A DNA stretch of 45,099 nt from an uncultured archaeon (GCA_964391885.1 CAYMNU010000068.1:1-45099), one strand, 5' to 3'. Numbered from the stretch's first letter, positions 5,634 to 25,510 are shown. Numbers and translations: made by a program. The notes: generated by a model not told the origin, from the letters alone.

Positions 5634-6101
5634 ATGAAGATTTTAGATGCTTCGGGCGTCATAAACGCGAGAGAAGCATTTGACGGGGAATACATTACTG
5701 CCCCGGAGATAGTCAGGGAAATCAGGGATATCCAATCACGCATGAAGCTCGAGTCAGCGATAGCTGAAGGCAAAGTCAGGCTTCAGGAGCCTTCTGACGC
5801 TGCCCTGGACAAGGTCGAGGCGGCTGCCGAGAAAGCAGGAGTTTTGCCCTTACTGTCAATACCTGATATGAAGGTGCTCGCCTTGGCATACGAAACTCGA
5901 TTGCCCATAGTCACGGATGATTACGACATACAGAATATGTGCTGGCTCTTGGGGCTGGGCTTTGAGACTATAATAATGCCTGGAATCAAAAGCGCATTTA
6001 CATGGAAAAAGAAATGCACGGCCTGCGGAAAAGAGCATTCCGAGGACATTGCCGAATGCGAGGCTTGCGGCTCGACGCGCTTTAAGGTAGTCAAAAATTA
6101 G
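5634..6101 (+). CDS. nob1: Nob1-like rRNA maturation endonuclease (PIN + Zn ribbon)
   Basis: ILDAS, LSIPD, TDDYDIQN, and C-terminal CTAC...CEAC. Confidence 0.9.
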   Translation: MKILDASGVINAREAFDGEYITAPEIVREIRDIQSRMKLESAIAEGKVRLQEPSDAALDKVEAAAEKAGVLPLLSIPDMKVLALAYETRLPIVTDDYDIQNMCWLLGLGFETIIMPGIKSAFTWKKKCTACGKEHSEDIAECEACGSTRFKVVKN

Positions 6102-17397: not shown

Positions 17398-18330
17398 TCA
17401 ACATATCTCCGTACCTAGTCCTTTATCCAAGGCTTTCTGGTAGACCAGGCTTGCCATGGCGACATCTTGAAGTGCGGTTCCCACTGATTTGAAGATAGTT
17501 ATATCTTCAGGAGATTTTCTTATCTTCCTGCCATTAAGGGCGTCCTGTATCTCAATGATATCGCCTTTGTAGCCCTTCAGATCGCCCGACTTGAGGCTAT
17601 CCTTTGAATCTGCGACGATGCATTTAGCCTTCTTTATGACGTCCTCATCCAATTCTCTGGCATCCGGGGTATGCGCGCCTATGGAAGTTATATGAGTCCC
17701 GGGCTTAATCTTGCTGCCGATGACGACAGGTTTCTTGGAAAGAGTGGCGGCGACTATAATATCAGCATCCAAAACGCCTTCAGAGGTTGATTTCTCTATG
17801 GCCAGCCCTAAGCCTTTCATATCTGCGATGAAAGCATCCATCGCAGCTTCAGTGGGGTCAAAAATTTTGACTGTATCAATCTTGCGAACCTTAGTCAAAC
17901 CCTCTAATTGGGTCCTTGCCTGCACCCCGCAGCCCAATATACCGACTACTTTTGAATCCTCTCGTGATAGTTGCTTTGCTCCAAGAGCTCCAAGCGCCCC
18001 GGTCCTGACGGCCGTGAGCATGCTGCCGTCTATTATCGCTTTCACTTCACCTGTTTCGGTGTCGGCAAAGACTATAGTGGCTATAATGGTTGGCTTCCCG
18101 ATCTTCTTATTCTCCGGATAATCGCAGACTATCTTGCAGGCTATTCCCATGCCGTCAACGTAAACGGGCATGAAGCCCCACCACTTCTCGCTGTTCGGGA
18201 GCGTGAACTGTGTCTTTTGAGGATAAATAGTCCGCCCTGCGGCGTGCTTAAGAAAAGCCAGCTCGACTGCGCCAATAGCATCATCCATCGAGACGAGCTT
18301 AGCGACATCGTCTTTGTTTAAGTAGAGCAT
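17398..18330 (-). CDS. Ornithine cyclodeaminase/mu-crystallin family (archaeal alanine dehydrogenase-like)
   Basis: KIVCDYPEN, LTAVRTGA, GCGVQA, SIGAH, FKSVGTALQD. Confidence 0.9.
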   Translation of the reverse strand: MLYLNKDDVAKLVSMDDAIGAVELAFLKHAAGRTIYPQKTQFTLPNSEKWWGFMPVYVDGMGIACKIVCDYPENKKIGKPTIIATIVFADTETGEVKAIIDGSMLTAVRTGALGALGAKQLSREDSKVVGILGCGVQARTQLEGLTKVRKIDTVKIFDPTEAAMDAFIADMKGLGLAIEKSTSEGVLDADIIVAATLSKKPVVIGSKIKPGTHITSIGAHTPDARELDEDVIKKAKCIVADSKDSLKSGDLKGYKGDIIEIQDALNGRKIRKSPEDITIFKSVGTALQDVAMASLVYQKALDKGLGTEIC

Positions 18331-18395
18331 TGTAGTGTAAATTTAATTTAGCGGTAGAAAAATCCGACAAAACTCGAAACCCTCATCAGATGCTC

Positions 18396-19493
18396 CTATT
18401 CGGCCAGCCTCTTCATGCCCTCGACCAGCTTGGCAGCAACCTCTGGCTTCGGCATCGCGAAGCTGATATACTTGTTGTCCATCTCGGTGAAGGTGGCTGG
18501 AACATCCCGTATCAATACCTTGTATTTCTCGAGGAAATAATCCCTGACTTCTGTAGATGTCTTGTCGAGTGCTGATATATCCATGAATAAGAAAGAGGTG
18601 GCTGAATCCCATACCTTTATGCCGAGCTTTTCGAACTCTGCACGCATCTCTGCCTTTTCTTCTGCAATCCTCCTCCAGATTCCTTGATAGTAAGAGAGGT
18701 CATCAAGGGCGGCTATACCCCCATAAACGCCGAAGCGATTCAGCTCGAAGCCGTTCAGTACCCTCCCGAAGACCTCGCAGTTATCCTTGGATGAGATAAA
18801 ATAAGACATCCTGCCCCCTGCCAAACCAAATCCTTTCGAAAAGCTGCGCGCTACATAGAGGTTTTCGTATTCGTTGACCACATCCGCCACACTCTCTCCG
18901 CAATATTCATAATAACACTCATCAACGACAACGATTCTATCTTTTGCATTCTCCACTACTTTCAGAATGTCATCTCTCGGCATTTTCAGCGAGGTGGGGT
19001 TGTTCGGGCTGCAAACGAAGACCATCCTAGTCTTTGAATCCATCTCTTCAATCAACTGATCAGCATCAATCGCGAAATCCGGTTCCTGCATTGGCACGAC
19101 CTTTCTTACCCCTCCGCATCTCTCGACACCCAATATCAGCTCAGGGTAGGTCGGAGCCATCGAGACTATGTTGTCGCCCGGCCGTATGAAACATTTTGGA
19201 AGGCGATTGAATGCCTGGTCCAATGCCTCATCAAGCACTATCTCTCCATACTCGACACCAGCGTAATCCGCAATCCCTTGTTGTAATTCTCCTGTCGGCT
19301 CGTCACCTACATAGACATACCACTTTGCGAGTGGTGCGTTCTTTTTCAAGGCTTCGACTACCTTGGGTGATATGTCATATTGGAACTCGTTAAGGTTAAG
19401 CCTGATTTCAGGTTTGATTGTCCCCTTCGCGCCGTATGCTGCAGCCTCGCAGCTCTCTAAATAAGGCCACATTAAGTCTTTTGCAGATGCCAT
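18396..19493 (-). CDS. hisC: Divergent HisC/CobD-like class I/II PLP enzyme
   Basis: LNLNE, SPNNPT, VDECYYEY, RSFSKGFGLAGGR (PLP Lys). Several substrate-site motifs are altered. Confidence 0.72.
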   Translation of the reverse strand: MASAKDLMWPYLESCEAAAYGAKGTIKPEIRLNLNEFQYDISPKVVEALKKNAPLAKWYVYVGDEPTGELQQGIADYAGVEYGEIVLDEALDQAFNRLPKCFIRPGDNIVSMAPTYPELILGVERCGGVRKVVPMQEPDFAIDADQLIEEMDSKTRMVFVCSPNNPTSLKMPRDDILKVVENAKDRIVVVDECYYEYCGESVADVVNEYENLYVARSFSKGFGLAGGRMSYFISSKDNCEVFGRVLNGFELNRFGVYGGIAALDDLSYYQGIWRRIAEEKAEMRAEFEKLGIKVWDSATSFLFMDISALDKTSTEVRDYFLEKYKVLIRDVPATFTEMDNKYISFAMPKPEVAAKLVEGMKRLAE

Positions 19494-19560
19494 TGTGGCA
19501 TATTTTGTCGGCGCTTACATAAATATGAGCCCATCTTTGCAATGACAGCTTGCTAAACCC

Positions 19561-20424
19561 TTACTCCCTTAATTTTCCAATTAGTCGGGGGAGTTCCGTA
19601 ACGTCATCCACTACGTCATCCGCCCCCGCTTCCCTGAGCGACTCCTCACTGGCTATACCTGTGCGCACGCAGATGCATCTTATCCCCGCTCTCTTGGCGG
19701 AAAGCGCGTCTGAAACAGAATCACCCACAAACACATAGTCGTTCTCAAAATTCCCGCAACTTTCGCATCCTTCATTAGCATATATCGCATGCAGTATAGG
19801 CCAGGGATCCGGCTTTCCCAAATGCTTTCCCTGCCTCTCGCTCTCCTCAGCTATCTCGGTTTCTGTGACAATCATTTTGGAATCAAAATAGTTCCAAAGC
19901 CCCCATTTTTTGAGCGGCAGTTCGGTCTCAGACAGTGGCCTGCCGGTCACTATGCCTAGCCCAAGACCCATGCGCATAAGCTCTTTAAGTGCATTTTCTA
20001 TTTTTTCCAGCCCGATGACGGGCTCGTCGCTGTCCGCCAGCTCATAGTAGCAGGCCTGAAAGCGCTTGTGTGATTCCTTCCATTCTCCACCCTCCCTGTC
20101 ATGGCTTTCCGAGGGGTCGAGTTCGTCAAGAAGCTTTAGGTATTCAAGCCCCTTATAACCCCTCGCGGCAAGCTCTTTCAGGAATTCGCGCACATCCTTT
20201 CCAAGCTTCGCCAGTACTGAAGAGCAATAGGCGATGTCCCAGTTAGAGTTCACGCCTGCCTCCTTGAAGCCTTTTATTACCTCATCTGGCAGAACGTCTT
20301 TGGCGTCTAATTCCCTACTATTCTCTAAATCTCCGAGCGACCTCGCTACTGCCATTCCGGCGCAATTCCAGTAGATGCGCTCAGAGGTTATTACCCCGTC
20401 CAGGTCGAAAAGCACTGCTTTCAT
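19561..20424 (-). CDS. HAD-superfamily phosphatase, candidate histidinol-phosphate phosphatase
   Basis: FDLDGV (motif I), VTGRP (II), GKPDP (III), VGDSVSD (IV); lies between hisB and hisC. Confidence 0.85.
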   Translation of the reverse strand: MKAVLFDLDGVITSERIYWNCAGMAVARSLGDLENSRELDAKDVLPDEVIKGFKEAGVNSNWDIAYCSSVLAKLGKDVREFLKELAARGYKGLEYLKLLDELDPSESHDREGGEWKESHKRFQACYYELADSDEPVIGLEKIENALKELMRMGLGLGIVTGRPLSETELPLKKWGLWNYFDSKMIVTETEIAEESERQGKHLGKPDPWPILHAIYANEGCESCGNFENDYVFVGDSVSDALSAKRAGIRCICVRTGIASEESLREAGADDVVDDVTELPRLIGKLRE

Positions 20425-20456
20425 AGTTTTATTCTTTGCCAGACTAATTAAATAAA

Positions 20457-20627
20457 ATGAGGCCTAGGCAGAATCCGCGCATCTTCAGGCACAAGTGCCC
20501 CAAGTGCCCGCAAACTATAAATGTCACTGCACGGTCCGAGAGGGAAAAGCAGCCGGCGAAGTGCGTATGCGGCTGGGAAGGCTTTGTGAAAGATCCCGAA
20601 GGGAAAGTGCATAGGATAATCAGATAA
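20457..20627 (+). CDS. 56-aa basic Zn-ribbon microprotein
   Basis: MRPRQNPRIFRHKCPKCPQTINVTARSEREKQPAKCVCGWEGFVKDPEGKVHRIIR*. It fills the hisB-HAD gap on the opposite strand. Not in the ORF track. Confidence 0.7.
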   Translation: MRPRQNPRIFRHKCPKCPQTINVTARSEREKQPAKCVCGWEGFVKDPEGKVHRIIR

Positions 20628-20629
20628 TC

Positions 20630-21256
20630 CTACTTTAGCGTCCCTTTCACGCCTGCGGTAGTCCCCGCCCGCCAGGGGTTCGGATCGAACGCTTCCCGCA
20701 GCGCCTCGCCGAGTGCCCTGAAGATGCTTTCCCATGTGTGGTGCGGGTCTTTGCCTGATTCCACGACTATCCTTATGCTGGCGCCCAATCCAAGCGCCAA
20801 GCCGTCAAGAAAATCATCCAAATCACAGGTCTTTGTGTCCTCGACCATGGTCAAATCAGTAATAGGATTGCCCTCAAGCATAAGTCTAGGCCTGCCCTCA
20901 ATGCTCACAACTGCAGTCGCGCAGCCTTCGTCTATCATGCTCCTCGAGGCTCCGCTGACACCTTTCTTCAGCTTCTCCTCAAACATTGCCCTGAGCGCAG
21001 AACCCAGCACAATGCCAGAGTCCTCCGCAATCACATGAGTGAGCTTGAAGTTGGTCGTGGTGTACTTGAAATCGATGTTCAGGTTCATCCTCCATCCCAG
21101 AGTTTCAATCATGTGGTTGAGGAAGGCTAGTCCTGTGTCCATCTTCGTCTGCCTCCGCGGCTTTGAATCTATGCTACACTCTATCTTTGACTCGCGAGTG
21201 ACTCGTTCTACTATTACTTCAGTGTCCGAAACCTTCTTTATGTCTGCGCCGACCAT
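20630..21256 (-). CDS. hisB: Divergent imidazoleglycerol-phosphate dehydratase
   Basis: RVTRES, DTGLAFLNHM, THVIAED, MIDE, DPHHTWESIFRALG, C-terminal VKGTL; start at MVGAD (21256). Confidence 0.8.
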   Translation of the reverse strand: MVGADIKKVSDTEVIVERVTRESKIECSIDSKPRRQTKMDTGLAFLNHMIETLGWRMNLNIDFKYTTTNFKLTHVIAEDSGIVLGSALRAMFEEKLKKGVSGASRSMIDEGCATAVVSIEGRPRLMLEGNPITDLTMVEDTKTCDLDDFLDGLALGLGASIRIVVESGKDPHHTWESIFRALGEALREAFDPNPWRAGTTAGVKGTLK

Positions 21257-21260
21257 TTTC

Positions 21261-21773
21261 TTATTTATCCCTCTTAAGTAAGCTAATAATACTTTCCCTG
21301 TCATTAATTATTCTTGGATAAATAGCTCGATCCATTATAATGGATTTTCTCTTCAAATGCCTTCCAACCACTCTTTCAAATGTTTTTTCATCAAACCCTT
21401 CGACTCTCTTTAGATGTTCTAGTAGGGGTGGCATTTGACTAAAATCCGCACGTGGTCTTAAGCAGCTTGCAACGACAACAGCATCCGCATCTTCAAAATC
21501 CTTAGGTCGAACTCCACCCTCTGCATCATCCAAAATTACGCCTTTGGACCTCAGAAAGACTCCCCTATCCAGACCGGCTACTTTTCTCAACCTGAATCCC
21601 TCCCCGCCTATTTTTATGGAAAACCTTACGGGATCGTACTTTCTACCGCTCAATGCCGTAGCACATTGCGCACCTAAAAAACGTGAATCTCCAACTCCGC
21701 TGGGGCAAAGGAACAGCATTTTATAATCTTTCGGTCTCTTTCCTTTCCTTTTAGCAAAAGAAGGCATTTTCAT
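21261..21773 (-). CDS. Orphan protein with basic N-terminus and LMW-PTP/PTS-IIB-like Cys loop
   Basis: ATGA overlap with the hisD stop; MLFLCPSGVGDS and KDFEDADAVVV; visibly more AT-rich than its neighbours. Confidence 0.65.
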   Translation of the reverse strand: MKMPSFAKRKGKRPKDYKMLFLCPSGVGDSRFLGAQCATALSGRKYDPVRFSIKIGGEGFRLRKVAGLDRGVFLRSKGVILDDAEGGVRPKDFEDADAVVVASCLRPRADFSQMPPLLEHLKRVEGFDEKTFERVVGRHLKRKSIIMDRAIYPRIINDRESIISLLKRDK

Positions 21774-23056
21774 CTCTCAAACCTGACTTCCACCGACTTA
21801 GTGTGCGCCGGAAAGCCCTCGAACTCCGAGAGCATAGTGATATCTCTCTTCAGGCTCCTCAAACCGTCCTTGGAAAGCTTTTCGACAGTGGGCCTCTTTA
21901 GGAAAGTGTCCACGCTCACGCCAGAATACATCCTCCCGAACCGCCCCGTCGGCAGGATGGCATTAGGCCCTGCAGCAAAGTTGCCCGCAGTTATCGGCGA
22001 GTACTGGCCAAGGCAATAGGTTCCCGCGGTCGTGAGTTTATCAAGGGTTTTCTCAGGGTCCTTAGTGTTCACGACCAGATGCTCCACGGCATAGTCATTG
22101 ACAAAGGCTATCGCTTCTTCCATATTCCTGCAAAGAACAATCCCAGAATACTTTCTTATGTTCTCGAGCACATAACCCTGCCTGACCTCATCCAGCTCAT
22201 TGAGCATGAGATAGAACTCCTTCTGCACCTTAAGTGCCAGCTCCTGCGAGTCCGTCACTAAAACAGCTGCAGAGTCCGGTCCGTGCTCAGCTTCACTCAG
22301 GACATCGGCTGCAACGTAGTTTGGCTCAGCAAATTTATCTGCGAGCACCATCCCTTCACTCGGACCCGGAGGAAAATCTATGCGCACATCATTCCTGACT
22401 AGCCTTTGTGCGGCGGATACGTAAGGCCCCCCCGGACCTGCAATCACATCACATTTTGGTATCTTCTTCGTGCCGTAAGCCATAGCGGCAATGGATTGCA
22501 CACCTCCGACTTTGAACAGCTTGTCAACACCGCAGATGTCCGCAGCCACAAGGCTCGCGACGTCCAAAACCCCTTCATATTGGGGAGGGGTGCACACGAC
22601 AATCTCTTTGATGCCCGCCACCTTCGCGGGAACTGCCAGCATAAGCATCACAGAGGGGTAAACCGCTTTTCCTCCCGGCACATAAAGCCCCGCGCGCTCC
22701 AGGGGTATGACTCTTCGCCCCACTTCCACGCCCGGTTCTATCTCCATCCTGAACTCATCGGGCATCTGCCTCTCATGGAATTTTTTTATGTTTTTATATG
22801 CGCGCTGTATTGCTTTTAGGAGGGGCTCGTCTATGCTATCATAAGCAGCACTCATCTCATCTGCGCTTACTTCTATCTCCTTTAACTTTATTCCGTCAAA
22901 CTTTTCAGTATACTCCAGAACAGCAGCATCCCCACGCTTCCTGACATCCTCTATTATCGCTTCCGCAGCTTTCTCTGCTTTTGCTACGTCTTTCTCGGCG
23001 CGCAGCATAAAGTCCTGTTTCACCTCGTCCCTTGCTAATATTGGCAGCCTCATCAT
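21770..23056 (-). CDS. hisD: Histidinol dehydrogenase homolog with variant Zn site
   Basis: GLYVPGGKAVYPS, GGVQSIAA, GPSE, SEAEHG, AVEHL, GNFAAGPNAILPT, EGFPAH. Confidence 0.88.
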   Translation of the reverse strand: MMRLPILARDEVKQDFMLRAEKDVAKAEKAAEAIIEDVRKRGDAAVLEYTEKFDGIKLKEIEVSADEMSAAYDSIDEPLLKAIQRAYKNIKKFHERQMPDEFRMEIEPGVEVGRRVIPLERAGLYVPGGKAVYPSVMLMLAVPAKVAGIKEIVVCTPPQYEGVLDVASLVAADICGVDKLFKVGGVQSIAAMAYGTKKIPKCDVIAGPGGPYVSAAQRLVRNDVRIDFPPGPSEGMVLADKFAEPNYVAADVLSEAEHGPDSAAVLVTDSQELALKVQKEFYLMLNELDEVRQGYVLENIRKYSGIVLCRNMEEAIAFVNDYAVEHLVVNTKDPEKTLDKLTTAGTYCLGQYSPITAGNFAAGPNAILPTGRFGRMYSGVSVDTFLKRPTVEKLSKDGLRSLKRDITMLSEFEGFPAHTKSVEVRFER

Positions 23057-23904
23057 TTTACAAGCCTTTCTATAGGCAGGACTAATATGTCCCTGCCTCC
23101 CATCCCCTTTAATTTTTTGATTAAGTTAAATATGTCCCGTTCGCCGACTACCATCTGCACGGCGATCCACCCTTCTTTGTCAAGCCTTGTCACTGTCGGG
23201 GAAAGAGCACCCTTGCTGGTCTTCTCCAACTCGCTAAGCTTGCTCTCGGGCATGTTTGCCATCAGGTATTTCTTCTTGTCTGCGGAGACCACGCTCTTTA
23301 TGCCCAAAAGTATGTCGTCGACCATATCATCTTTTGTACTGGGGTTTGCAATCAGCGAGAATTGTGACTCCAGGAGAGTGTCCACTACTTCAAGTCCATG
23401 CGTCTTAAGCGTGGAGCCTGTGGAAGTAAGGTCGACGATTGCATCGGCAAGTCCAATCACAGGAGCAACTTCAACGGCACCCGATAGCTCTACTATCTCT
23501 ACTTTCTTCCCTGCTTTTCTGAAGTAATCCTTGCTTGCTTTTACGAACTTCGTTGCCACCCGTGAGCCTTCTTTCAGGTCGCTTACCGATTTCAGCACAC
23601 CCTCTTTTGCCGCAAGCACAAGCGAGCAGTAGCCGAAGCCAAGGTCAGCTATTCTTTTGATATTGGCTCCCTTCTCAACTATTATGTCCTGGCCCACCAT
23701 GCCCAGGTCTGCAACGCCTTCCTCGACGAACTGCGGTATATCCTCGACCCTGACAAACATTATGTCAACCCCCGGCTCATTAGTCCTGACGAAGAGCGAC
23801 TTCTCGTCATAGCTAACCGGCTTAATCCCTGCGCTCCTCAATAGCTCGAGGCACGGAGCCTTCATCCTCCCCTTGTTTGGTATTGCTATTCTCAGCTTTC
23901 TCAT
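23053..23904 (-). CDS. hisG: ATP phosphoribosyltransferase, long form
   Basis: IAIPNKGR, RVEDIP, DLGFG, VATKF, GAVEVAP, IVDLTSTGSTL, plus the C-terminal regulatory domain. Confidence 0.95.
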   Translation of the reverse strand: MRKLRIAIPNKGRMKAPCLELLRSAGIKPVSYDEKSLFVRTNEPGVDIMFVRVEDIPQFVEEGVADLGMVGQDIIVEKGANIKRIADLGFGYCSLVLAAKEGVLKSVSDLKEGSRVATKFVKASKDYFRKAGKKVEIVELSGAVEVAPVIGLADAIVDLTSTGSTLKTHGLEVVDTLLESQFSLIANPSTKDDMVDDILLGIKSVVSADKKKYLMANMPESKLSELEKTSKGALSPTVTRLDKEGWIAVQMVVGERDIFNLIKKLKGMGGRDILVLPIERLVK

Positions 23905-25142
23905 TTTAATGCCTCCACAACCTTATCCTTTGGGACTATTGCCTGGTCCCCGCTTTCCATGTCTCTCACTGTCACGTTGCCGTCTGCAAGGTCTTTCTTC
24001 CCCACTATCACGATCTTTTCCACCCCAAGCTTGTCGGCATATTTCATCTGGTTTGAAAAGTTGCGCCCGAGCAGGTCCCCCACAGTGGCAAAACCCGATC
24101 TTCGCAATTTCTGCATAATCCTCACGGCAGTGTCCTCGGACTCACTATCCGCGCGCAGTACATATACCTTAGCACTACTCTTCCTCTTGCTTAAGAGATT
24201 CTTCTCACGCATGACTTCGATTATTCTCTCGATTCCAAGGCTTATCCCCACTGCCGGAACATCCTCTTTCTCGGAAATTTTGCCGATGATTTTATCATAC
24301 CTCCCGCCCCCTGCAATAGAACCGTAATCCCCAAGCGCCACCTCGAAGATGGGCCCGGTGTAGTAATCCAGGCCACGCACCATCGAGAGATCGAGGTCAA
24401 CGCCCTTTCCGTATTCTTCAATAAGCTTGAAGAGGCGCCTCATCTCTTTGACGCCCTCAGTTTCGCCCAACAGTTTCTCAATTTCTTCAAGCGATTTTAT
24501 TTTAAGCGCATTCATGAGGCCATCCAACTTGTCTTCTGGTATTTCCTTTAGCTCTTTCCTAACTTCTTTCTCCCCCAGCTTCTCCAGCTTGTCAAGAGCC
24601 CTGAACACCGCGAGCTCTCGGTCCTTGCTAATGCCTATCTTGGCCAAAAGCTCATCCAGGACCTTCCTATTGTTAACCTTGAACTTGAATCCCTTCAAGC
24701 CAAGTGCCTCGAATGCGTCAATAGCGCATGAGATGATCTCCGCGTCTGCGTTCATGTCGGATACCCCTACGATATCCACATCACATTGCCAGAACTCGCG
24801 GAAACGCCCTTTCTGCGGCCTGTCGAAGCGCCAAACGCGCGATATGCAGTAGCGCTTGTAGGGCATAGTAAGCTGATTCATGGCGACGACACGAACCAAT
24901 GGCACAGTCAAATCATACCTGAGGGCTAGCTTCCTGCCTCCCATATCCTCGAATTTGTAGATAAGCTTTTCCTCCTCCCCGTATTTGCCTTCAAGCAGCT
25001 CCGCGTATTCGAAAGCGGGCGTCTCGGAAGGCGAGAATCCGTAAGACTCAAAACTAGCTTTAATCTTGTCGATGACCTCTTGCCTCTTCACCATTTCATG
25101 CGGGAGAAAATCCCGCGTCCCCGGAGGGGTTTCTAGCCTCAT
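23901..25142 (-). CDS. hisS: Histidyl-tRNA synthetase
   Basis: GTRDF, LRYDLT, RFDRPQKGRFREFWQCD, RGLDYYTG, GGGRYD, GISLGIER, and an anticodon-binding domain. Confidence 0.96.
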   Translation of the reverse strand: MRLETPPGTRDFLPHEMVKRQEVIDKIKASFESYGFSPSETPAFEYAELLEGKYGEEEKLIYKFEDMGGRKLALRYDLTVPLVRVVAMNQLTMPYKRYCISRVWRFDRPQKGRFREFWQCDVDIVGVSDMNADAEIISCAIDAFEALGLKGFKFKVNNRKVLDELLAKIGISKDRELAVFRALDKLEKLGEKEVRKELKEIPEDKLDGLMNALKIKSLEEIEKLLGETEGVKEMRRLFKLIEEYGKGVDLDLSMVRGLDYYTGPIFEVALGDYGSIAGGGRYDKIIGKISEKEDVPAVGISLGIERIIEVMREKNLLSKRKSSAKVYVLRADSESEDTAVRIMQKLRRSGFATVGDLLGRNFSNQMKYADKLGVEKIVIVGKKDLADGNVTVRDMESGDQAIVPKDKVVEALK

Positions 25143-25510
25143 TTTGTATAGACCTCAGAAACAAAATCAAGAGCCTTTAATTTGCGCAGAAGCTTACTAA
25201 AATCCCCTTTATACTTGCCCACGAGGTTCCATTCGGCTTTTCTTTCCCTCTCAAGGCTCCTCGACTCGCTCATTATTATGTCAAAGCCCTCATTGGACAG
25301 GAACTCGGCTATCTTTGCCAGGCTCCCCGGCGCGTCGCCCATTACTACTTTCATCTCATATACTTTTTTGTCAAATACCGGGCTCATCGTAGCTGTTTTG
25401 CCGTCAAGCCCCACTACTATTTCCATGCCCGGTTCTATGCCCAGCGCCTTGCGTATCCCCAACGGGATAAGCAGCCTTCCCTTCTCATCGATTTTAGATA
25501 TTTCCTGCAT
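25139..25510 (-). CDS. AbrB/MraZ-type DNA-binding domain fused to an ACT domain
   Basis: KIDEKGRLLIPLGIRKALGI plus DAPGSLAKIAEFLSNEGFDII; ATGA overlap with hisS. Confidence 0.85.
   Translation of the reverse strand: MQEISKIDEKGRLLIPLGIRKALGIEPGMEIVVGLDGKTATMSPVFDKKVYEMKVVMGDAPGSLAKIAEFLSNEGFDIIMSESRSLERERKAEWNLVGKYKGDFSKLLRKLKALDFVSEVYTK

What the first reader, a model, noticed from the sequence alone, without database searches (positions are those of the whole stretch)
17398..25510. His-like gene cluster whose late enzymes (HisD*, HisB*, HisC*) all have altered active sites: candidate repurposed or variant pathway
Seen: minus-strand order AbrB-ACT, hisS, hisG, hisD*, orphan, hisB*, HAD, hisC*, OCD/AlaDH. 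HisS and HisG have canonical motifs, while the three late enzymes each lose normally conserved ligands (detailed separately). hisI/E, hisA, hisF and hisH are absent from the window. Known: dehydratase, aminotransferase, phosphatase and 4-electron dehydrogenase convert imidazole-glycerol-P to histidine. Inference: parallel changes in consecutive enzymes fit co-adaptation to a different X-glycerol-phosphate substrate (a non-canonical heteroaryl amino acid or a salvage route), or an unstudied variant of His synthesis. The OCD/mu-crystallin enzyme could provide an imine-reduction or amination step. Caveat: the cluster is not one tight operon (gaps and an antisense microgene after hisB).
Basis: partly seen in the sequence, partly recalled or inferred. 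Interest (0 to 1): 0.8.

Follow-up and report, generated by a model that had tools for sequence, protein, structure and literature searches.

The report
Variant histidine operon, not repurposed
This is most likely the archaeon's ordinary histidine-making gene cluster, built from a widespread but undescribed version of the late enzymes in which metal-binding residues thought to be invariant have been swapped or dropped.

Summary
The minus-strand order is AbrB-ACT, HisRS, HisG, HisD, orphan, IGPD, HAD, HisC-like, OCD. The late enzymes do differ at conserved sites.

- HisD has Gln259Glu, Asp360Asn and His367Ala.
- IGPD has His74Val and His145Asp, with its phosphate site rebuilt using Arg.
- HisC has its C-terminal Arg replaced by Ser.

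These changes are not peculiar to this genome.

- The HisD change is a strictly coupled swap: 268 Glu/Asn, 50 Gln/Asp, one Arg/Asp and no Glu/Asp or Gln/Asn combination among 319 sequences. It marks one clade.
- The IGPD changes mark a deep sister clade to the canonical enzymes.

Both variants are the only copies in this genome, which carries hisA, F, H, I and E elsewhere. The same holds for the complete genome of Petroclostridium sp. X23.

The two variants travel together in his operons, often with the same HAD family. That HAD is the likely histidinol-phosphate phosphatase. Exceptions to the pairing exist.

I read the cluster as ordinary histidine synthesis with variant active sites, co-inherited as a module. 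I do not read it as a pathway for another substrate.

The orphan is an AT-rich insertion found only in this species. The library searches I ran turned up no description of either variant.

The parts
25139..25510 (-). Small AbrB/SpoVT-like DNA-binding domain fused to an ACT domain. Candidate amino-acid-sensing regulator and first gene of the cluster.
   Evidence: TIGR01439 AbrB domain scores 26.4 bits (below the 28.3 cut-off). PF01842 ACT scores 22.8 bits (below 27). NF006352 scores 91.6 bits (below 140). The gene overlaps HisRS by 4 nt. It sits at the same place in L009 at 71% identity. The regulatory role is inferred.
23901..25142 (-). Histidyl-tRNA synthetase with an anticodon-binding domain. 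It is the only one in the genome.
   Evidence: TIGR00442 scores 417 bits against a cut-off of 286.75. PF03129 is present. It is the only match over the cut-off in the genome.
23053..23904 (-). ATP phosphoribosyltransferase HisG, long form with the C-terminal regulatory domain.
   Evidence: TIGR00070 scores 205.8 bits (cut-off 75.75). TIGR03455 scores 88.7 bits (cut-off 40.05).
21770..23056 (-). Histidinol dehydrogenase of the Glu/Asn type. The zinc ligands Gln259 and Asp360 are swapped to Glu and Asn, and His367 is Ala.
   Evidence: PF00815 scores 509 bits and TIGR00069 495.6 bits. Alignments to 6an0 and 5vlb show the changes. It is the only copy in the genome. Column counts are and the clade.
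21261..21773 (-). Orphan ORF of 170 aa inserted between hisD and hisB. Function unknown.
   Evidence: It overlaps the hisD stop by 4 nt and ends 4 nt before the hisB start. It has no family match. No homologue but itself was found among 5.8 billion proteins. GC3 is 0.34 against 0.54-0.64 in the neighbouring genes. It is absent from L008 and L009; in same-genus G059 only about 90 nt separate hisD and hisB. The AF2 model is unusable at pLDDT 32.
20630..21256 (-). Imidazoleglycerol-phosphate dehydratase of the variant clade. His74 is Val, His145 is Asp, and the phosphate site is rebuilt with Arg56 and Arg180 (window numbering).
   Evidence: PF00475 scores 88.9 bits. It is below all 13 NCBIfam cut-offs. 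It is the only copy in the genome. The AF2 model has pLDDT 89.8, and the 29 PDB matches at E <= 0.001 (25 printed) are all IGPD at TMq 0.70-0.82.
19561..20424 (-). HAD-superfamily phosphatase with one large cap insertion. Candidate histidinol-phosphate phosphatase.
   Evidence: PF13419 scores 62 bits and PF00702 55.4 bits. It is below the cut-off of every NCBIfam model listed. The motifs DLDG, TGRP, GKPDP and GDSVSD are present. Homologues follow variant hisB in many bacterial loci. The activity is inferred.
18396..19493 (-). HisC-subfamily aminotransferase from a narrow, divergent lineage. Candidate histidinol-phosphate aminotransferase.
   Evidence: It is the best TIGR01141 match in the genome (192 bits, below the cut-off). 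The three other matches align with general class I aminotransferase motifs. PLP Lys, Asn, Asp, Tyr and Arg are kept, and the C-terminal Arg is Ser. The next full-length relatives below 60% identity are at 28-36%.
17398..18330 (-). Ornithine cyclodeaminase/mu-crystallin family protein. Function open; a link to histidine is not shown.
   Evidence: PF02423 scores 243.5 bits. TIGR02371 archaeal alanine dehydrogenase scores 238.8 bits, below the 409.15 cut-off. It is syntenic in L009 at 63% identity.

Best explanation
This is the organism's working histidine cluster. I infer the steps as follows.
- An AbrB-ACT protein probably regulates the cluster.
- HisRS charges tRNA-His.
- Long-form HisG starts the pathway.
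- The middle steps (hisE, I, A, F, H) are encoded on other contigs.
- The variant IGPD dehydrates imidazoleglycerol phosphate.
- The HisC-like enzyme transaminates the product.
- The HAD enzyme removes the phosphate.
- The Glu/Asn-type HisD oxidises histidinol to histidine.

The 'altered active sites' are the signatures of old, widespread sister lineages of HisD and IGPD. These lineages are inherited, and probably transferred, together as one operon module.

**HisD.** The carboxylate and the amide in the zinc shell have changed places (Gln259Glu with Asp360Asn). Zinc would still have two His, one carboxylate and one amide.

**IGPD.** Both catalytic Glu and five of the six His/Glu ligands besides 74 and 145 are near-invariant. 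His74 is gone. His145 is Asp here. The phosphate pocket uses two Arg of the same chain in place of His55, Lys177 and the Arg99 position.

**What is shown and what is inferred.** Shown: identities, substitutions, copy numbers, clades and synteny. Inferred: that all four late enzymes keep their usual substrates, and how the metal sites are rebuilt.
For: **Sole copies in a genome that has the rest of the pathway.**
- One IGPD and one HisD.
- Two PF00977 barrels at 274 and 226.7 bits, PRA-CH, PRA-PH and hisH at 216 bits.
- One HisRS.

**The variant HisD is a large single clade.**
- Among 319 distinct HisD sequences, 268 are Glu/Asn, 50 Gln/Asp and one Arg/Asp. None is mixed.
- His262 is kept in 319, Glu326 in 319, His327 in 318 and His419 in 318.
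- The clade holds 88 of 119 rows in the tree, with SH-like support 90.

**It is the only HisD in six other genomes**: Aggregatilineales SYSU G02658, Ca. Electronema halotolerans, Ktedonobacter racemifer DSM 44963, two Bacillota MAGs and Petroclostridium sp. X23.

**The variant IGPD signature is under selection** across 121 rows.
- Kept: E21 in 118, H47 in 119, H73 in 121, E77 in 119, H169 in 120, H170 in 115, E173 in 120.
- Position 74 is never His.
- R56 occurs in 108, R180 in 118 and a new Trp in 120.

**Other support.**
- The fold is IGPD.
- Canonical IGPDs sit on one side of a branch with SH-aLRT 100.
- Variant hisB lies inside his operons in archaea and bacteria.
- Petroclostridium has only the variant pair, and the two genes are adjacent.
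- The HAD family follows hisB across domains.
- A HAD gene between hisB and hisC proved to be the phosphatase in Nitrosopumilus (PMC10804674, abstract and passages).
- The surrounding genes are housekeeping genes.
Against: - No member of either variant clade has been assayed, as far as my searches show.
- In the related DHPS dehydrogenase, changing the Asp ligand to Ala abolished activity (PMC11382572). The Asn here is therefore not trivially neutral.
- IGPD is said to need manganese for both structure and mechanism (PMC4509728), yet one ligand of Mn1 is lost.
- HisC lacks an Arg that I recall as binding substrate, and it is below the HisC equivalog cut-off.
- The genome is 84% complete, so a second copy could lie in the missing part.
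- Histidine prototrophy of the cultured strains named was not checked.
- Two Chloroflexota genomes with the variant HisD have no detectable IGPD at all. The late pathway in this clade may therefore hold surprises.
Confidence: 0.8

Rival explanations
1. Repurposed pathway. The dehydratase, aminotransferase, phosphatase and dehydrogenase have co-adapted to a different heteroaryl-glycerol-phosphate and make a non-canonical amino acid, or run a salvage route.
For: - Residues that touch the imidazole-binding metals differ in HisD and IGPD.
- The two variants co-occur in 105 of 135 typed loci.
- Within one archaeal phylum they switch together: 10 genomes carry both variants, 4 carry both canonical forms, and none is mixed among the genomes typed for both.
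Against: - There would be no enzyme left for histidine. These are the sole copies, in a genome that keeps hisG, E, I, A, F and H.
- The cluster carries hisG and the only HisRS.
- The variant HisD is the sole HisD in six other genomes.
- Mixed pairs exist: L010, L033 and L179.
- The HisD swap keeps the ligand set, and the catalytic residues are invariant.
- Each variant is a single clade, so one origin with co-inheritance explains the correlation.
Confidence: 0.05
2. HisC* is not the histidinol-phosphate aminotransferase. One of the three general class I aminotransferases does that step. HisC*, perhaps together with the neighbouring OCD-family enzyme, serves another reaction, or uses another amino donor such as alanine.
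For: - TIGR01141 scores 192.7 bits against a cut-off of 276.55.
- The C-terminal Arg is Ser in the window, L009 and P0242. It is also missing in 5 other rows of the 88 rows aligned.
- The lineage is narrow, with the next relatives at 28-36% identity.
- Variant hisB loci in other phyla carry ordinary HisC-like genes at about 26% identity to this one.
- OCD is syntenic in L009.
Against: - It is the only HisC-subfamily member and the best TIGR01141 match in the genome.
- It lies 67 nt after the HAD gene in the his cluster.
- The PLP residues are kept, as are the Asp and Tyr that I recall as contacting the imidazole.
- 4 of 14 control genomes also score below this cut-off.
Confidence: 0.15
3. Decay. 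In a small-genome archaeon the late genes are losing function, and the substitutions are relaxed-selection damage.
For: - The genome is small: 1.13 Mb at 84% completeness.
- An AT-rich foreign ORF sits inside the operon.
Against: - The same residues are fixed across hundreds of sequences from many phyla.
- The frames are intact, with tight 4-nt couplings.
- Catalytic residues are invariant.
- The AF2 model of the IGPD is confident.
Confidence: 0.03

Closest known systems
Canonical histidinol dehydrogenase (E. coli HisD 1K75/1KAE, Medicago HisD 5VLB-5VLD, PDB entry 6AN0)
   Same: - Same family, length and domain order: 296-322 bits to the solved enzymes.
- Glu326, His327, His262 and His419 are kept.
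- Over the TIGR00069 equivalog cut-off.
   Different: - The axial Gln is Glu and the equatorial Asp is Asn.
- His367 is Ala.
- The G-S-A-P-L loop reads G-K-A-V-Y.
- The solved HisD and HpsN structures compared in PMC11382572 have Gln and Asp (passages).
DHPS-3-dehydrogenase HpsN (8V35, 8WWE), a HisD relative with another substrate
   Same: Same fold family. It matches the window protein at 214-254 bits.
   Different: - HpsN keeps Gln and Asp and adds a His at the end of a G-R-Y-A/S-H motif that binds sulfonate (PMC11382572).
- The window protein has Tyr there.
- The window protein scores higher to true HisD.
Canonical IGPD (Arabidopsis IGPD2 4MU0-4MU4, M. tuberculosis HisB 4GQU)
   Same: - Same fold: TMq 0.70-0.82 over about 190 columns.
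- Glu21, His47, His73, Glu77, His169, His170 and Glu173 are kept.
   Different: - 25-30% identity.
- The Mn1 ligand His74 is Val and the Mn2 ligand His145 is Asp.
- Gln51, His55 and Lys177 are Thr, Arg and Arg, and the Arg99 position is not Arg.
- DxSGR reads SxEGR, and there is a new invariant Trp after the HH pair.
- Whether a 24-mer forms is unknown.
nmHisN (Nmar_1556) and toHisN, archaeal HAD-type histidinol-phosphate phosphatases
   Same: - It is a HAD enzyme encoded between hisB and hisC.
- There is a single large insertion after motif I.
- A Tyr lies shortly after the nucleophile motif.
- The paper (PMC10804674, passages) showed HolPase activity for the Nitrosopumilus gene at this position.
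   Different: - I hold no nmHisN or toHisN sequence, so homology of the caps and the Y-D-K-E fingerprint were not tested.
- The window family has its own motifs: YW after motif I, and N(S/T)NWD.

Membership tests
Histidinol dehydrogenase (TIGR00069 / PF00815) | Score over the curated equivalog cut-off | tested here: met
   495.6 bits against 243.8. PF00815 scores 509.2 bits.
Histidinol dehydrogenase (TIGR00069 / PF00815) | Catalytic Glu326-His327 pair, and zinc ligands His262 and His419 from the partner chain | tested here: met
   AVEHL, SEAEH and FPAHT are present in the window protein. The columns are kept in 318-319 of 319 sequences.
Histidinol dehydrogenase (TIGR00069 / PF00815) | Axial Gln and equatorial Asp as zinc ligands | tested here: not met
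   Glu and Asn stand in their place. The ligand set is described in PMC11382572. The swap is coupled in 268 of 268 cases.
DHPS-3-dehydrogenase HpsN | G-R-Y-A/S-H motif ending in the sulfonate-binding His | tested here: not met
   The window protein reads G-K-A-V-Y at that loop.
Imidazoleglycerol-phosphate dehydratase (PF00475) | Pfam gathering score and IGPD fold | tested here: met
   88.9 bits against 27. The AF2 model has pLDDT 89.8, and the 29 PDB matches at E <= 0.001 (25 printed) are all IGPD.
Imidazoleglycerol-phosphate dehydratase (NCBIfam HisB equivalogs) | Score over an equivalog cut-off | tested here: not met
   The best score is 100 bits against a cut-off of 189. All 13 models are below their cut-offs. 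Several relatives are named 'hypothetical protein' by NCBI.
Imidazoleglycerol-phosphate dehydratase | Eight metal ligands: His47, His73, His74, Glu77, His145, His169, His170, Glu173 | tested here: not met
   Six of the eight are kept. His74 is Val and His145 is Asp. The ligand list comes from Table 2 of PMC4509728.
Imidazoleglycerol-phosphate dehydratase | Catalytic Glu21 and Glu173 | tested here: met
   Glu in 118 and 120 of 121 rows.
Imidazoleglycerol-phosphate dehydratase | Manganese-dependent 24-mer | not testable with these tools
   No coordinates or assemblies could be examined.
Histidinol-phosphate aminotransferase HisC (TIGR01141) | Score over the equivalog cut-off | tested here: not met
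   192.7 bits against 276.55. Only 10 of 14 control genomes pass this cut-off.
Histidinol-phosphate aminotransferase HisC (TIGR01141) | PLP lysine and the Asn, Asp, Tyr and Arg that hold PLP | tested here: met
   SPNNP, DECYY, SFSK and GGR align with the canonical motifs. The residue roles are recalled.
Histidinol-phosphate aminotransferase HisC (TIGR01141) | C-terminal Arg in the LRI(T/S)xG motif | tested here: not met
   It is Ser in the window, L009 and P0242. The role of this Arg is recalled.
Archaeal HAD-type HolPase (nmHisN/toHisN) | HAD catalytic motifs, and a gene placed between hisB and hisC | tested here: met
   DLDG, TGRP, KPDP and GDSVSD are present. The position is shown. The precedent is in PMC10804674.
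Archaeal HAD-type HolPase (nmHisN/toHisN) | Fingerprint Tyr24-Asp25-Lys56-Glu64 in the cap | not tested
   I held no reference sequence. The logos are in supplements that I did not open.
Archaeal alanine dehydrogenase (TIGR02371) | Score over the equivalog cut-off | tested here: not met
   238.8 bits against 409.15. It is a member of PF02423 only.

The most novel reading that the evidence does not exclude
Glu/Asn HisD, His74-less IGPD and the YW/NSNWD HAD phosphatase together form an ancient alternative 'late histidine module'.

**Its chemistry differs.** The zinc site has its anionic ligand moved to the axial position. The IGPD metal and phosphate sites lean less on neighbouring chains, which may change the metal used or the 24-mer assembly.

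**It has moved as a unit between archaea and bacteria.**

**It has evolved further in some lineages.** In Desulfobacterota and relatives it became a two-copy IGPD that splits the active-site roles. In some Chloroflexota IGPD has been lost or replaced; there a kinase-fold gene is coupled to hisD.
Probability: 0.35. Interest if true: 0.7.

Novelty: new variant of a known kind. Interest (0 to 1): 0.45.

Why it matters
- **Targets.** IGPD is a herbicide target and HisD an antibacterial target. The structural papers I read treat their metal ligands as conserved. A large natural clade with a ligand swap (HisD) and a missing ligand (IGPD) is a ready-made test of what those residues are for.
- **Annotation.** Variant IGPDs fall below every NCBIfam cut-off, and some are named 'hypothetical protein'. 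Small-genome archaea and candidate-phyla bacteria may therefore be scored as histidine auxotrophs by mistake.
- **The phosphatase gap.** Histidinol-phosphate phosphatase is missing in 42 of 208 prototrophs in GapMind 2026, more than any other step (PMC13759103, passages). The HAD family found here next to variant hisB across domains is a concrete candidate for that step.

Tried and rejected
- **Orphan ORF.**
  - A protein search found only the ORF itself.
  - Pfam and PDB sequence searches at E up to 10 gave nothing credible.
  - The Atlas lead to LMW phosphatases (0.89) is below its own trust level and has no sequence support.
  - The AF2 model has pLDDT 32, so I ran no fold search.
  - There is no paralogue in the genome.
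- **RNA and signal scans.** The Rfam and tRNA scans of the window were empty. The promoter and terminator scan was at shuffle level, and it models bacterial signals only.
- **HisB-HAD gap.** The 205-nt gap is not conserved; the same-genus genome G059 has about 25 nt there.
- **Route to a known prototroph.** I tried to reach Desulfovibrio through locus L178, which is labelled Desulfovibrionaceae. Its genome falls in the same family group as a Bacillota MAG, so the label is doubtful and the route failed.
- **My own mis-mapping.** In one search I mis-mapped two IGPD columns. The Arg in 'IRIV' aligns with His159, which is not a ligand. His145 aligns with Asp148. This is corrected.
- **Crude regex typing.** My regex typing mislabelled L012 and L016. 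One search shows the variant motifs in both.
- **Complex prediction.** I did not run one. It would not show metal coordination.
- **Literature searches.** Searches found no description of either variant. Subscription papers are outside that library.

Full report
**What is there**

The window is contig C68 of a 1.13-Mb genome in 86 contigs, 84% complete. The only two relatives that the search for related loci returned for its HisB, at 81-84% identity, are an Altiarchaeota MAG and an 'uncultured archaeon'.

On the minus strand lie nine genes:
- an AbrB-ACT protein;
- HisRS;
- long-form HisG;
- HisD;
- a 170-aa orphan;
- IGPD;
- a HAD hydrolase;
- a HisC-like aminotransferase;
- an OCD/mu-crystallin protein.

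The first six overlap by 4 nt or are 4 nt apart. Gaps of 205, 67 and 65 nt follow. The flanking genes are housekeeping genes: PheRS, enolase, FtsZ, ThyX and prephenate dehydratase. The Rfam and tRNA scans found nothing.

**The substitutions are real**

*HisD.*
- It aligns with solved HisD over its whole length.
- It reads SEAEH where they read SQAEH.
- It reads SPITAGNFAAGPNAILPT where they read SPESxGDYxSGTNHxLPT.
- The passages I read of PMC11382572 say that HisD and HpsN bind an octahedral zinc. The ligands are two His (one from the partner chain), an equatorial Asp and an axial Gln.
- The spacings given there fit these motifs: Gln248/His251 and Asp352/His359.
- The E. coli numbers 259, 360, 367 and 419 are recalled.

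*IGPD.*
- Table 2 of PMC4509728 lists Mn1 as His47, His74, His169 and Glu173. It lists Mn2 as His73, Glu77, His145 and His170.
- The phosphate site is Gln51, His55, Arg99 and Lys177.
- The window enzyme has Val for His74, Asp for His145, Thr for Gln51, Arg for His55 and Arg for Lys177. It has no Arg at the Arg99 position.

*HisC.*
- It keeps the PLP motifs.
- It has Ser where relatives have the Arg of LRI(T/S)xG.

**They are clade signatures, not private changes**

*HisD.*
- Of the 120 best homologues of the window protein, 116 carry Glu and Asn and 4 carry Gln and Asp.
- Over 319 distinct sequences from all my sets, 268 are Glu/Asn, 50 Gln/Asp and one Arg/Asp. None is mixed.
- In a FastTree of 119 rows the Glu/Asn sequences form one clade of 88 with SH-like support 90.
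- By record title and source name, Glu/Asn HisD comes from Altiarchaeota, Micrarchaeota, Hadarchaeota, Chloroflexota, Clostridia, Desulfobacterota and others.
- These sets were gathered by likeness to the window or by the variant pattern, so the proportions say nothing about nature at large.

*IGPD.*
- All 120 best homologues share the signature.
- Position 74 is never His.
- Position 145 is Asp or Glu in 74 rows and something else in 47.
- Arg56 occurs in 108 rows, Arg180 in 118, SxEGR in about 118-120, and a new Trp in 120.
- In an IQ-TREE quick tree of 89 rows, the 28 canonical enzymes sit on one side of a branch of length 2.5 with SH-aLRT 100.
- The AF2 model is confident at pLDDT 89.8. 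The 29 PDB matches at E <= 0.001 (25 printed) are all IGPD.

**They are the working copies**

- The genome has one IGPD and one HisD.
- It has two PF00977 barrels, PRA-CH, PRA-PH and hisH on other contigs.
- It has one HisRS.
- It has four TIGR01141 matches, of which the window gene is the best. The other three align with general class I aminotransferase motifs.
- Five further genomes each have a single HisD of the Glu/Asn type. Petroclostridium sp. X23, a complete genome, has one variant IGPD beside one Glu-type HisD.
- I did not check whether the cultured strains grow without histidine.

**Do the variants go together?**

Yes, mostly. Among 135 loci where both genes could be typed:

| HisD type | IGPD type | Loci |
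|---|---|---|
| Glu/Asn | variant | 105 |
| Gln/Asp | canonical | 26 |
| Glu/Asn | canonical (L033, L179) | 2 |
| Arg/Asp | variant (L010) | 1 |
| Glu/Asn | truncated, not typed | 1 |

By set:
- Loci anchored on HisB: 35 typed loci among the 82 loci returned.
- Loci anchored on HisD: 25 of 80 typed. The other 55 had no IGPD-like hit within 8 kb.
- Loci anchored on Bacillota HisB: 75 of 80 typed.

Within the window's phylum (61 genomes; only the best 30 loci per search could be typed):
- 10 genomes of two families have both variants;
- 4 genomes of other families have both canonical forms;
- none is mixed.

Kin are not independent, and the genes are neighbours. Each variant is a single clade. 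One origin followed by co-inheritance or co-transfer of the operon is therefore enough to explain the pattern. The three mixed loci show that the pairing is not obligatory.

**The phosphatase**

- Homologues of the window's HAD gene were found in 97 stored loci.
- In many Bacillota loci the order is hisD, variant hisB, HAD.
- The family shares the motifs DGVITSE..YW, N(S/T)NWD, TGRP, KPxP and GDxxxD.
- PMC10804674 (abstract and passages) reports that the HAD gene between hisB and hisC of Nitrosopumilus is a histidinol-phosphate phosphatase with one large helical cap.
- GapMind 2026 (passages) names this step as missing from more prototroph genomes than any other.
- Whether the window's HAD belongs to the nmHisN family was not tested.

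**HisC and OCD**

- HisC* belongs to a narrow lineage. There is one representative at 60% identity, then 28-36%.
- Eight of the 88 rows aligned lack the C-terminal Arg.
- It is the only HisC-subfamily gene in the genome, so I keep it as the aminotransferase, with less confidence.
- OCD is linked only in the close relative L009. A role in the pathway is speculation.

**The orphan**

- It has no family and no homologue.
- Its GC3 is 0.34 against 0.54-0.64 in its neighbours.
- It is absent from L008 and L009; in same-genus G059 only about 90 nt separate hisD and hisB.
- It looks like a recent foreign insertion that kept translational coupling on both sides.

**Verdict**

- The 'different substrate' reading is not supported.
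- The 'unstudied variant of His synthesis' reading is supported.
- My searches of the held library found no description of either variant. Papers outside that library were not seen.

Noticed in passing
L137:7998-12804 (Aggregatilineales SYSU G02658) and L171 (Ktedonobacter racemifer DSM 44963): Both Chloroflexota genomes have a single Glu/Asn HisD. Neither has an IGPD detectable by PF00475 or by the variant profile. In L137, hisD is overlapped by 4 nt by a 412-aa APH-family phosphotransferase gene (PF01636, 31 bits). Convergent hisG and a HisZ-like gene follow. This may be a non-homologous replacement of IGPD or an altered late pathway.
   Followed up: partly
L103, L105, L108, L109, L112, L114, L115, L116, L159; also G063 in the window's own family and G002:C1:1371755-1372966: These loci carry two tandem IGPD-like copies, in some cases within one open frame. 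Each copy is half degenerate. Copy 1 keeps the His47 motif and the PHHxWE motif but lacks HVxxED and SxEGR. Copy 2 keeps SSHVxxED and SVEGRK but lacks the other two motifs. This looks like a heteromer that splits the active-site roles between two chains.
   Followed up: partly
window:21261-21773 (-): A species-specific AT-rich orphan ORF (GC 41.7%, GC3 0.34) is inserted exactly between the hisD stop and the hisB start. Translational coupling is kept on both sides. It has no homologue in 5.8 billion proteins.
   Followed up: yes
window:25139-25510 (-): An AbrB-like DNA-binding domain fused to an ACT domain heads the cluster. It is conserved at the same place in L009. It may be a histidine-sensing repressor of an archaeal his operon.
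   Followed up: no
L178 / G067: A contig labelled 'uncultured Desulfovibrionaceae bacterium' belongs to a genome whose family group also holds a Bacillota MAG, G004. The record label or the binning is doubtful. Contigs labelled Pleurocapsa and Xenococcaceae likewise carry HisD that nests among Chloroflexota in the tree.
   Followed up: no
window:583-2524 (+) and window:3004-3561, 5634-6101 (+): There are two adjacent cobalamin-independent methionine synthase-like genes, one for each half-size form, and two PIN-domain genes. I noted them only as context.
   Followed up: no
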